NCBI GenBank assembly: GCA_944383915.1
Contig: CALWRJ010000023.1
Coordinates: 10,274-74,273, forward strand
DNA length: 64,000 nucleotides
Direction of reading: 5' to 3'
DNA from: an uncultured Clostridia bacterium
GTDB taxonomy: Bacteria; Bacillota; Clostridia; Christensenellales; UBA1242
Part shown: positions 7,475 through 9,111 of the stretch, piece by piece
Position numbering within the stretch: position 1 is the first letter of the stretch
Layout: every line of letters begins with the position of its first letter
Translations under genes and position numbers: made by a program
The notes under the pieces: model-generated
Seen by the model: only the letters and a program-made list of their open reading frames with translations
Database searches by the model: none
What the model was told of the DNA's origin: nothing

Positions 7475-8910
7475 CTCCTACTCCTTTGCTCGCGCCGTAA
7501 TTTCGAAATTAATTTGTTTTTGTGAATTTGAATTTCGTTCAACTTTTCCTTTTCGGGCGCGTGCGGTTCGGGGCGCGACATTATGTAGTAGCGAAGTTCG
7601 TCCATCGCGTGGTCGTCTTTTTTAATCGGCGCATCGGCACTTCCCCAAAAATAGCCCTTAATTTCTCGAATCATATTGACGCAAGTCGAAAAAATGAACA
7701 GCCGACTTTCGCCATTCGCGTTTTTTAAATAACTTTTGACACGCGAAATTCCCGAAAACAAATCTTTGTTGACATTCGTATTCACATTAATTCCGTAATC
7801 GTAGAAAAGTTCGCTCACGCTTTTTGGACCTGCAAGTGTTTTTTGATTCGCCGCGGAATCGATAAGCGCGGAAATTTTTCCGTCAAAACCTGTTGGCCAG
7901 CCGAGCGCGTGTGACTTTTGCAAAATTTTTTCGGCGTGGTATTCAATCGTTTTGCCCGCCTCGTAATGTTCGGCAATTACATAAATGTTGCCGTCAAAGT
8001 CGACTGCGTACCAATGCGCACTCAATGGATTGTGAAGTCCGGGGTCGATGCTGATGTTGTCGAACCACTCGCGCGGAACATTAAAAGGCTCAATCACATT
8101 GACATTAATATCAAATTCGCTATAAACGAGCCCGCCGAACGCGTTAAATTTTCCGTAGCGCCGAGCCTCCAACTCGTCTTTACTCAAAGTTTTAGAAAGG
8201 CTATCAATTTCACTTTTTGAAAGATACGGGTTGTCCGCCCACTCCATTTCGATATACCAGACATCGCTGTCGTTATTTTCGTTTAAATAAATTTTGTCGT
8301 ACACCCAAGTAAGCCCTTTTAGCGGAGTCATCGTTCCAAAAATTAAACCTTCGCGGTCAAACACGCGCATTCGACATTCGAGATAAATATCAAAAGGCGG
8401 TTCCTCGTCAAACCATACATAGTCAAGGCTCGTTCCCTGAAATTTTTCGCGCCCCTGGTCGCAAGTCTTAAAACCAATTTTGCTGAGTTCCCCAAAAACA
8501 TTTTTTACCAAAATATAATCGATAACGCCATTTTCGGCAAAATCTTTGCGCCCATTGAGCATTACAATATCTGCTATCCAATCGGGGTTTAAATAATTCA
8601 AAATTTTTCGTTGCGCCACATCGCGCTGGACTTGTGAAGTAAGGCTCACCACCCAACCTTCCGTAGTTTTGTTTTCGCGGAATGGATGGATGCCGCGCGC
8701 CAGCCAAACAGTTTCGACTGCGCCACATTGTGATTTACCGCTTCGGTTTCCACCGAACACCCAACGATTGCGCTTTAAACATTTATGAAACTCCATTTGC
8801 TTTAAATGGACTTTACCGACATTGTAAGTACTTAATTTATCATTTTGCTTTCGCCGTTTAAGTTCTTTATCAATTTTTAACAACTTATTCACTAGTTCAA
8901 TTTGTTGCAT
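7462..8910 (-). CDS. terL: phage terminase large subunit (482 aa)
   Basis: Walker A-like GGNRSGKSQCGA and Walker B-like LDYVWFDEEP. Length and the following portal gene fit TerL. The start codon lies inside a copy of the TGCATAGTAC motif (8905-8915). Confidence 0.85.
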   Translation of the reverse strand: MQQIELVNKLLKIDKELKRRKQNDKLSTYNVGKVHLKQMEFHKCLKRNRWVFGGNRSGKSQCGAVETVWLARGIHPFRENKTTEGWVVSLTSQVQRDVAQRKILNYLNPDWIADIVMLNGRKDFAENGVIDYILVKNVFGELSKIGFKTCDQGREKFQGTSLDYVWFDEEPPFDIYLECRMRVFDREGLIFGTMTPLKGLTWVYDKIYLNENNDSDVWYIEMEWADNPYLSKSEIDSLSKTLSKDELEARRYGKFNAFGGLVYSEFDINVNVIEPFNVPREWFDNISIDPGLHNPLSAHWYAVDFDGNIYVIAEHYEAGKTIEYHAEKILQKSHALGWPTGFDGKISALIDSAANQKTLAGPKSVSELFYDYGINVNTNVNKDLFSGISRVKSYLKNANGESRLFIFSTCVNMIREIKGYFWGSADAPIKKDDHAMDELRYYIMSRPEPHAPEKEKLNEIQIHKNKLISKLRREQRSRRWNL

Positions 8911-9111
8911 AGTACCTCTAAATGTTTAAAATTTTGTTAAAAAACGCGCTTTTTCGCTAAATTTTCCTTTTTACTGATATTTTTACATAAAATTGCATAG
9001 CACCTTAAAAACTTGCATAGTACTTCAAAAACTTGCATAGTACTTCAAAATTCTGCATAATACTTTAAAATTTTGCATAGCACCTAAAAAGTTTCTAAAT
9101 TTGCATAGTAT
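8905..9111 (+). repeat. array of 7 TGCATAGTAC-type motifs; six form ~20-bp tandem units upstream of terL, one overlaps the terL ATG
   Basis: Copies begin at 8905 (contains the terL start codon), 8993, 9013, 9033, 9053, 9073 and 9101. The unit is approximately AAAAACTTGCATAGTACTTC. Variants are TGCATAGCAC, TGCATAATAC and TGCATAGTAT. Confidence 0.9.

What the first reader, a model, noticed from the sequence alone, without database searches (positions are those of the whole stretch)
8905..9111. Six ~20-bp tandem motif units directly upstream of terL, plus a copy spanning its start codon: pac-like site or late operator?
Units begin at 8993, 9013, 9033, 9053 and 9073 (exactly 20 bp apart, two helical turns) and at 9101. 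A seventh copy (8905-8915) contains the terL ATG, and the 18-nt string GGTACTATGCAACAAATT around it recurs at 15845-15862. Arrays of direct repeats next to terminase genes are how several phages organise TerS binding (pac/cosB). Alternatively the array could be a late-promoter or operator region. No canonical terS lies upstream of terL.
Basis: partly seen in the sequence, partly recalled or inferred. Interest (0 to 1): 0.6.

Follow-up and report, generated by a model that had tools for sequence, protein, structure and literature searches.

The report
PadR-type operator half-sites amplified beside terL
The repeat array next to the DNA-packaging gene is real, but its 11-base core is a motif scattered about 190 times through this bacterium's genome and matches the binding site of a PadR-type regulator, so it is most likely a regulator-binding array and not a phage packaging signal.

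Summary
Five 20-bp units lie at 8993-9092, with a sixth copy at 9101 and a seventh across the terL ATG.

The pac-site reading does not hold. The core (T)TGCATA(G/A)TA(C/T) occurs 193 times in 94 clusters of this 1.18-Mb genome (reversed control 0). It occurs in all 16 species of the genus and patchily in other genera. Fourteen other species of the genus and 19 other genera have the orthologous terL, but none has the motif array in the spacer upstream.

The motif's oldest conserved place is just upstream of the -35 box of the genome's only PadR-family gene. That gene encodes a 507-aa membrane-anchored protein. The motif is there in 17 of 29 genera. Its reverse complement, GTACTATGCA, shares the half-site GTACTAT with the experimentally defined operator of C. 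difficile cdPadR1.

I read the array as a species-specific tandem amplification of PadR-type operator half-sites, inside about 700 bp of newly gained spacer. It probably lets the regulator coat, and so repress, the terL/orf9811 control region. Binding and effect are inferred.

Most copies in the genome are not next to promoters, so many may be decoys or neutral.

Side result: the terL-portal-capsid module is vertically conserved across the family and much of the order (Christensenellales-like MAGs), which is the pattern of a gene transfer agent (GTA).

The parts
8993..9092 (+). Five tandem 20-bp units, each an 11-bp motif copy (TTGCATAGCAC / TTGCATAGTAC x2 / CTGCATAATAC / TTGCATAGCAC) followed by an A/T-rich 9-bp spacer.
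   Evidence: Core mismatches to consensus are 5/66 against 12/54 for the spacers.
9101..9111 (+). Sixth motif copy, TTGCATAGTAT, 28 bp after the fifth. It is followed at once by a weak promoter-like TTAAAA-18-CATAAT (9113-9142, + strand).
8905..8915 (+). Seventh copy, TTGCATAGTAC. On the minus strand it reads AGAGGTACTATGCAA and spans the terL ribosome-binding site and ATG (8910-8908).
7462..8910 (-). terL, the large terminase, first gene of a conserved phage-like head and packaging module.
   Evidence: Pfam Terminase_6N 1.1e-10. PHROG terminase large subunit 1.5e-29. Orthologues in 59/61 family genomes.
8911..9810 (.). 900-bp, 78% A+T divergent spacer between terL and orf9811. Only about 9705-9763 is homologous to the short ancestral spacer of a sister species. 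Roughly 8990-9700 is lineage-specific gained DNA, with the array at its terL-side edge.
   Evidence: No Rfam family matches. One DnaA box with 1 mismatch at 9610.
9811..10929 (+). orf9811, a divergent signal-peptide/SH3-like membrane protein gene, syntenic with terL across the family. The motif copies of the array read in this gene's direction.
   Evidence: Promoter-like TTAACA-17-TACAAT at 9745-9773.
15846..15949 (-). Second array of the same motif: four copies at 32/30/31-bp spacing with dissimilar spacers. The first copy shares the 18-mer with the terL start.
250..272 (.). Motif cluster with an overlapping inverted pair just past the last head-module gene of the window. A further pair lies at 551-568 inside the 125-aa ORF.
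   Evidence: The same neighbourhood carries the motif in G007 and G050.
10983..11017 (.). Motif cluster of four overlapping copies in both orientations in a convergent spacer.
33692..33747 (+). Motif cluster of four copies upstream of a metallophosphoesterase gene (32733-33437, minus strand).
54997..55073 (.). Motif cluster of five copies, including a palindromic overlap.

Best explanation
The array is a species-specific tandem amplification, with a 20-bp unit, of a 10-12-bp protein-recognition motif, (T)TGCATA(G/A)TA(C/T), whose reverse complement is GTACTATGCA. This motif is the half-site of a PadR-family operator. Its ancestral, family-wide location is directly upstream of the -35 hexamer of the genome's single PadR-family gene. 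That gene encodes a 507-aa protein with an N-terminal winged helix and a C-terminal membrane domain, and it lies divergent from a YgjP-like metallopeptidase gene. In this genus the half-site has multiplied to about 190 copies in intergenic DNA. At terL, six phased copies at -93 to -201 and one copy across the RBS/ATG offer a run of binding sites. A PadR dimer or oligomer could coat them. The most likely effect is repression of the divergent terL (GTA-like head operon) and orf9811 promoters. Shown here: the motif, its distribution, its conservation at the PadR promoter and its match to a published PadR half-site. Inferred: that this PadR binds it, and that binding at terL represses transcription. 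It is not a terminase recognition (pac/cos) site.
For: (1) The motif is genome-wide and specific. There are 193 copies in 94 clusters against 0 for the reversed control in G000, and 106 against 0 in sister species G007. Of the hits at <=1 mismatch, 71% are intergenic. There are no conserved flanking positions.
(2) It is present in all 16 species of the genus.
(3) It is conserved at one locus across the family. A copy at <=1 mismatch lies within 260 bp upstream of the PadR gene in 17 of 29 genera (chance expectation about 0.7). It usually lies 1-10 nt upstream of TTGAC(A/T)-17-TATAAT-like hexamers. This holds even in genomes with only 5-16 copies in total: G086, G055, G079, G046, G077, G024 and G085.
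(4) G000 has exactly one PadR-family gene (Pfam PadR 6e-22). Its recognition helix and wing are nearly invariant across the family.
(5) C. difficile cdPadR1 binds its own promoter at GTACTAT(N2)ATTATA(N)AGTA. The TACT(N11-12)AGTA repeat is essential, and the motif occurs at about 200 genomic places (PMC5050560). Our motif begins with the same GTACTAT. The commonest inverted arrangement in G007 (9 cases) and the G000 and G070 PadR promoters give exactly TACT(N11)AGTA.
(6) Eleven of 34 orthologous upstream regions share the motif between G000 and G007, which have a median 68% amino-acid identity (odds ratio 34).
(7) The core is better conserved than the spacers in both arrays of the window.
(8) The phage-like module is a hot spot in G000, with 9 of 94 clusters against 1.3 expected. 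It also carries copies at similar places in G007 and G050.
Against: Only 2 of 193 copies in G000 sit next to a recognisable -35/-10 pair. Density is highest in convergent spacers (1.32 per kb), against 0.78 in tandem and 0.41 in divergent spacers. That is the opposite of a classical operator distribution. Copy number varies about 30-fold among species of the genus (2-67 exact 11-mers) and is patchy in the family, with a second expansion in G050. This behaviour resembles a proliferating repeat. The terL array consists of direct half-sites at 20 bp, not the 11-12-bp inverted geometry of a full PadR operator. The array is absent from the spacer upstream of every other orthologous terL examined, so it cannot be needed for the module to work.
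Confidence: 0.55

Rival explanations
1. The motif is a non-regulatory intergenic repeat of the REP/BIME kind. It has spread and been locally duplicated in the unusually long, repeat-filled spacers of this lineage. The terL array would be a recent slippage product with no effect on terL, whether or not a protein can bind it.
For: Density is highest in convergent spacers. Spacers with the motif have a median length of 412 bp against 150 bp overall. The genome carries several other abundant repeat families, such as GCAATTA heptamers and GC hairpins, sometimes adjacent to the motif. Copy number differs widely between species. The array occurs in one species only, and two of its units are identical including their spacers. 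Only 2/193 copies are promoter-adjacent.
Against: The motif is deeply conserved at the PadR promoter in 17 of 29 genera. It matches an experimentally defined PadR half-site. The core is conserved while spacers diverge. Locations are shared between species at 68% amino-acid identity. There is no REP-associated tyrosine transposase (RAYT): the only Y1 transposase is a single pseudogene not flanked by the motif. A single 11-mer has no hairpin potential.
Confidence: 0.3
2. The array is a pac/cosB-like recognition site where a small terminase assembles to start DNA packaging.
For: Direct repeats lie next to terL. A conserved 181-aa ORF of unknown function overlaps the terL stop. Known pac/cos sites use phased repeats (established knowledge of SPP1 pacL/pacR, P1 pac and lambda cosB).
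Against: The motif forms 94 clusters genome-wide. It is absent from the spacer upstream of terL in 14 other species of the genus and 19 other genera, which keep the module intact. The ORF 6929-7474 matches no Pfam or PHROG family. The motif is conserved at an unrelated regulator promoter.
Confidence: 0.03
3. The units act as tandem weak promoters or promoter-upstream elements. With 20-bp spacing, TTGCAT of one unit and CATAGT of the next form a TTGCAT-N17-CATAGT pair reading towards orf9811.
For: The spacing gives exactly 17 bp between the two hexamers. A promoter-like TTAAAA-18-CATAAT follows the last copy.
Against: These pairs score only 8/12 and were not listed by the promoter scan. Across the genome the dominant spacing is 12-13 bp, not 20. 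There is no orientation rule relative to genes (57 against 34), and many copies lie in convergent spacers.
Confidence: 0.05
4. The array is a set of iterons of a theta-type replication origin, next to an A/T-rich unwinding region.
For: There are five to six direct repeats at about 20 bp beside 700 bp of 78% A+T DNA.
Against: No rep gene is adjacent. Only one imperfect DnaA box lies in the spacer. The motif is dispersed over the whole chromosome. GC skew does not switch here.
Confidence: 0.02

Closest known systems
Operator of C. difficile cdPadR1 (PadR-s2 subfamily), GTACTAT(N2)ATTATA(N)AGTA (PMC5050560)
   Same: It shares the half-site start GTACTAT and the TACT(N11)AGTA geometry in the palindromic sites. 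It lies in the regulator's own promoter. There are about 200 further copies in the genome, and the protein oligomerises on longer DNA.
   Different: The regulator here is a 507-aa protein with a long linker and a C-terminal membrane domain, not a 110-aa soluble PadR-s2. The spacer of the full site is GCA-N-TGC, not ATTATA. The terL array consists of direct half-sites at 20 bp. Binding was not tested.
REP/BIME elements of enterobacteria and REPINs of Pseudomonas
   Same: Both are short extragenic repeats in high copy. Both occur singly and in mixed-orientation clusters, are enriched where genes converge, and vary in number between related species.
   Different: No RAYT transposase is present. 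The unit is only 11 bp and is not a hairpin on its own. One location is conserved across a whole family, at a regulator promoter.
Terminase recognition sites: SPP1 pacL/pacR, P1 pac hexamer repeats, lambda cosB R-sites
   Same: Phased short direct repeats next to a terminase gene.
   Different: Those sites are unique to the phage genome and conserved with the terminase. This motif is chromosomal, dispersed, and absent from the spacer upstream of orthologous terL.
Titrating clusters of regulator sites (E. coli datA; B. subtilis DnaA-box clusters)
   Same: Arrays of sites for one DNA-binding protein that lie away from regulated promoters and could buffer its free concentration.
   Different: A different protein family. 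No evidence here for titration.
FpGTA of Faecalibacterium, a podovirus-like gene transfer agent (PMC12946183). This is the closest known for the neighbouring module, not for the array.
   Same: A chromosomal operon of terminase, portal, scaffold and capsid genes, conserved across species. The same study saw GTA-like packaging in Christensenellaceae.
   Different: Homology to FpGTA was not tested. Here there are two capsid paralogues, and no particles or packaging data.

Membership tests
pac/cosB-type terminase recognition site | Conserved next to the terminase genes of homologous modules | tested here: not met
   There is no motif in the spacer upstream of terL in 14 other species of the genus or in 19 other genera. 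G003 has copies only inside the neighbouring gene.
pac/cosB-type terminase recognition site | Unique or nearly unique to the packaged element | tested here: not met
   193 copies in 94 clusters on 17 of 23 contigs.
pac/cosB-type terminase recognition site | A small terminase with a DNA-binding domain is encoded alongside | tested here: inconclusive
   There is no ORF upstream of terL. The 181-aa ORF downstream has no Pfam or PHROG match.
pac/cosB-type terminase recognition site | Ends of packaged DNA map to the site | not testable with these tools
PadR-family operator | Lies in the promoter of the PadR gene itself (autoregulation) | tested here: met
   Present in 17 of 29 genera, mostly abutting the -35 hexamer. 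The genome has a single PadR gene.
PadR-family operator | Inverted half-sites about 11-12 bp apart, such as TACT(N11-12)AGTA or ATGT-N8-ACAT | tested here: inconclusive
   Met at the G000 and G070 PadR promoters and in 9 sites of G007. Not met by the terL array, which has direct half-sites at 20 bp.
PadR-family operator | Sequence likeness to an experimentally defined PadR site | tested here: met
   It shares GTACTAT with the cdPadR1 motif (PMC5050560).
PadR-family operator | Bound by the PadR protein | not testable with these tools
   Needs EMSA, footprinting or DAP-seq.
REP/BIME or REPIN | Extragenic, high copy, enriched at gene 3' ends | tested here: met
   Density per kb is 0.044 in coding DNA, 0.41 in divergent, 0.78 in tandem and 1.32 in convergent spacers.
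REP/BIME or REPIN | The unit is an imperfect palindrome able to form a hairpin | tested here: not met
   The 11-mer is asymmetric. Palindromes arise only where two copies overlap.
REP/BIME or REPIN | An associated RAYT (Y1) transposase is flanked by the repeat | tested here: not met
   There is one Y1_Tnp pseudogene with two stops and no motif copies around it.
Iteron-type replication origin | Phased direct repeats beside an A/T-rich region, with an adjacent initiator gene | tested here: not met
   The repeats and the A/T-rich DNA are present. There is no rep gene, only one imperfect DnaA box, and the motif is dispersed genome-wide.

The most novel reading that the evidence does not exclude
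A single membrane-tethered PadR regulator has had its half-site amplified to about 190 intergenic copies in one genus. It would then act less like a local repressor and more like a genome-wide DNA-coating or DNA-to-membrane tethering protein. The terL array would be its strongest nucleation site and would keep an ancient GTA-like head operon silent until the regulator is released, for example by the divergently encoded YgjP-like metallopeptidase.
Probability: 0.12. Interest if true: 0.65.

Novelty: new variant of a known kind. Interest (0 to 1): 0.4.

Why it matters
The result removes a tempting but wrong annotation: repeats next to terL are not a pac site here. It gives a testable cis-element and a single candidate regulator for a group of uncultured, small-genome gut Clostridia about whose gene regulation nothing is known. 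If the PadR protein binds, the roughly 190 sites define its targets. The array also gives a first handle on how a vertically inherited GTA-like head operon might be controlled in this species. Finally, it is an example of a regulator's half-site behaving like a proliferating intergenic repeat.

Tried and rejected
- A full-text search for the motif strings found only primers and unrelated sequences.
- An Rfam scan of the spacer gave no match.
- RAYT/REPIN mobilisation was rejected. The only Y1 transposase is a pseudogene without flanking copies.
- A replication-oriented signal of the Chi or KOPS kind was rejected. G007 shows no strand bias along its replichores.
- A sigma-factor promoter reading was rejected. 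There is no second conserved box within 30 bp on either side, and there is no orientation or distance rule to start codons.
- The Xre-type gene at 57288-57707 has one copy 53 bp upstream, but this is not conserved in G007, so it is a weaker candidate binder.
- Co-variation between the PadR recognition helix and motif presence gave no signal, because the helix is nearly invariant.
- The spacer is not a copy of another genomic region.
- A scan of metagenome contigs for two adjacent array units found nothing, so strain-level copy-number variation could not be assessed.

Full report
OBSERVATION. Five head-to-tail 20-bp units start at 8993, 9013, 9033, 9053 and 9073. A sixth core lies at 9101. A seventh, TTGCATAGTAC at 8905-8915, reads AGAGGTACTATGCAA on the minus strand and contains the RBS and ATG of the 482-codon ORF 7462-8910.

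Tandem Repeats Finder gives period 20 and 5.1 copies. That ORF is a large terminase (Pfam Terminase_6N; PHROG terminase large subunit 1.5e-29). The 18-mer around the ATG occurs only twice in the genome; the second copy is at 15845-15862. In the array the 11-bp core differs from consensus at 5 of 66 positions and the 9-bp spacers at 12 of 54.

THE MOTIF IS NOT A PROPERTY OF THE PACKAGING MODULE. The window holds seven further clusters of the core. The whole 1.18-Mb genome holds 35 exact 11-mers and 163 at one mismatch or fewer, against 0 and 1 for the reversed control. They lie on 17 of 23 contigs.

With the degenerate form TGCATA[GA]TA[CT] there are 193 copies in 94 clusters. A sister species whose genome I fetched whole (G007) has 106 copies. 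The reversed control gives 0 in both. No position outside the 12-bp core is conserved. About 71% of hits are intergenic.

All 16 species of the genus carry the motif, at 2-67 exact copies. Across 58 genera of the family the 10-mer sits at chance level (0-3 copies) in most. It is clearly enriched in about ten genera, and one other genus (G050) has 123 copies.

HOMOLOGOUS terL LOCI LACK THE ARRAY. terL has a single-copy orthologue in 59 of 61 family genomes, at 45-85% identity that tracks kinship. It is syntenic with the divergent gene orf9811.

In 13 other species of the genus the terL-orf9811 spacer is short, about 130-260 bp. It holds a conserved block ATGCAATTATTGTTTTTTTTACGAnTTTTAAAC and no motif array. 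Nineteen other genera have none either, including G050 with its 123 copies.

The closest relative (G003) also has a short spacer. It has four copies of ATGCATAATAC, but inside the 5' coding part of the orf9811 orthologue, where they encode MHNT repeats.

In this genome only 9705-9763 still matches the sister species' spacer. About 700 bp of A/T-rich DNA has therefore been gained, and the array sits at its terL-side edge.

WHAT THE MOTIF IS. I compared G000 with G007, which have a median protein identity of 68%. Eleven of the 34 G000 upstream regions that have the motif also have it at the orthologue in G007 (odds ratio 34). One such place is the divergent spacer between a YgjP-like metallopeptidase gene and a PadR-family gene (Pfam 3e-50 and 6e-22).

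A region fetched from another genus only because it had two copies 20 bp apart turned out to be the same promoter. I then fetched the PadR locus from 29 genera. The gene is present in 58 of 61 genomes. A copy at one mismatch or fewer lies within 260 bp upstream in 17 genera, where about 0.7 would be expected by chance.

The copy usually ends 1-10 nt before a TTGAC(A/T) hexamer, which is followed 17 nt later by a TATAAT-like hexamer. Genomes with only 5-16 copies in total keep one of them at this promoter.

G000 has exactly one PadR-family gene. It encodes a 507-aa protein with an N-terminal winged helix, a long low-complexity linker and C-terminal membrane helices. Its recognition helix and wing are almost invariant across the family.

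A published study gives an independent match. C. difficile cdPadR1 binds its own promoter at GTACTAT(N2)ATTATA(N)AGTA. The TACT(N11-12)AGTA inverted repeat is essential, the motif recurs at about 200 places in that genome, and the protein oligomerises on longer DNA (PMC5050560).

Our motif read on the other strand is GTACTATGCA, which begins with the same seven bases. Where two copies face each other with a 1-nt gap, the site is GTACTATGCA-N-TGCATAGTAC, that is TACT(N11)AGTA. This is the commonest inverted arrangement in G007 (9 cases) and it occurs in the G000 and G070 PadR promoters. The commonest direct spacing genome-wide is 12-13 bp.

MOST LIKELY MECHANISM AT terL. The array offers six half-sites at 20-bp intervals, 93-201 bp upstream of the terL ATG, and a seventh over the RBS/ATG. 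All point towards orf9811.

I infer that the PadR protein can occupy and oligomerise along this stretch. That would hinder initiation or early elongation of the divergent terL and orf9811 transcripts. The phage-like module is a hot spot for the motif in this genome, with 9 of 94 clusters against 1.3 expected. Copies near the 125-aa ORF and upstream of the 403-aa structural gene recur in G007, and near the 125-aa ORF in G050. This fits long-standing control of the module by the same protein. Neither binding nor any effect on expression has been shown.

WHAT DOES NOT FIT A SIMPLE OPERATOR. Only 2 of 193 copies lie next to a recognisable promoter pair, and one of them is the PadR promoter. Density per kb is highest in convergent spacers (1.32), then tandem (0.78) and divergent (0.41).

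Copy number swings widely between species. The genome is full of other intergenic repeat families, some adjacent to the motif. Much of the expansion may therefore be neutral or act as decoy sites. The terL array, being unique to this species and containing two identical units, may be a recent slippage product. I give that rival 0.3.

REJECTED READINGS. The pac/cos reading is rejected for the reasons above. An iteron origin is rejected: there is no rep gene, there is one imperfect DnaA box, the motif is dispersed and GC skew does not switch. A RAYT-mobilised REP is rejected. A replication-oriented signal is rejected. A sigma-factor promoter is rejected. No Rfam family matches.

CONTEXT NOTICED. 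The terL-portal-scaffold-capsid-capsid module continues upstream of the window with further structural genes. It is present in nearly every genus of the family, and orthologues at 55-66% identity occur in about 24 of 60 genomes from other families of the order. Relatives are deposited as Christensenella or Clostridia MAGs. This is the pattern of a domesticated, GTA-like element. A recent study found a podovirus-like GTA in Faecalibacterium and GTA-like packaging in Christensenellaceae, without naming the element there (PMC12946183).

LIMITS. Gene calls were my own crude ORF calls. Related genomes are not independent samples. There is therefore no transcript, read-level or strain-variation evidence.

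Noticed in passing
window 299-8910 and G000 contig C23:3907-10273 (upstream of the window): The terL-portal-scaffold-two capsid paralogues-structural gene module is single-copy and syntenic in 59/61 genomes (56/58 genera) of the family. Orthologues at 55-66% identity occur in about 24/60 genomes of other families of the order. This looks like an anciently domesticated, podovirus-like GTA-type element in Christensenellales-like gut Clostridia, not a prophage. Compare FpGTA and the GTA-like packaging seen in Christensenellaceae (PMC12946183).
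   Followed up: partly
G000 contig C16:36486-38953 (outside the window): A divergent gene pair is conserved in 58/61 family genomes: a YgjP-like metallopeptidase and a 507-aa PadR protein with a C-terminal multi-helix membrane domain. This is an unusual membrane-anchored PadR architecture that suggests control by proteolytic release.
   Followed up: partly
L029 (G003) 3279-3440, orthologue of window orf9811: In the closest relative, four copies of ATGCATAATAC lie about 30 bp apart inside the coding region of the SH3-like membrane protein gene, where each encodes Met-His-Asn-Thr. The DNA motif is embedded in a low-complexity protein linker.
   Followed up: partly
L010, L030-L041: terL-orf9811 spacers of other species of the genus: Two adjacent ARG-box-like 18-mers (AATGAATAAAAATGCAGT and AATGTATAAATATTTACG) overlap the start of the orf9811 orthologue. 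A conserved block ATGCAATTATTGTTTTTTTTACGAnTTTTAAAC lies 60-95 bp upstream of terL. Both are candidate ancestral control elements of the divergent pair, and both are largely lost in this genome.
   Followed up: no
G000 C7:53853-55316; G050 C2:4810-7115; G007 D2 near 361300: The long spacer between the gidB-like gene and parA (origin-proximal region) carries the motif in three species of two genera: 3-5 copies in G000 and about 13 in G050.
   Followed up: partly
window 9301-9570: The A-rich part of the spacer consists of further degenerate tandem repeats (periods 18, 23, 28 and 36; units such as AAACAAAGTAAATTAGAGAA). They have no ORF and no Rfam match.
   Followed up: partly
several G000 clusters, e.g. 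C5:41949-42090, C5:48106-48234, C12:16523-16605, C19:4303-4392: A second short conserved element, AACTATTCG(C/T)AAAA, recurs 4 nt upstream of a motif pair. This suggests a composite repeat module.
   Followed up: no
G000 C7:1772-2101: A single IS200-like Y1 transposase pseudogene with two in-frame TAA stops lies next to a tRNA-like region.
   Followed up: partly
window 15851-15958: The second motif array can be read as a 35-codon ORF starting at the ATG inside the first copy (MQQIYKNNEVLCN...), with motif copies encoding EVLCN. This is probably meaningless, but it explains the shared 18-mer with the terL start.
   Followed up: no
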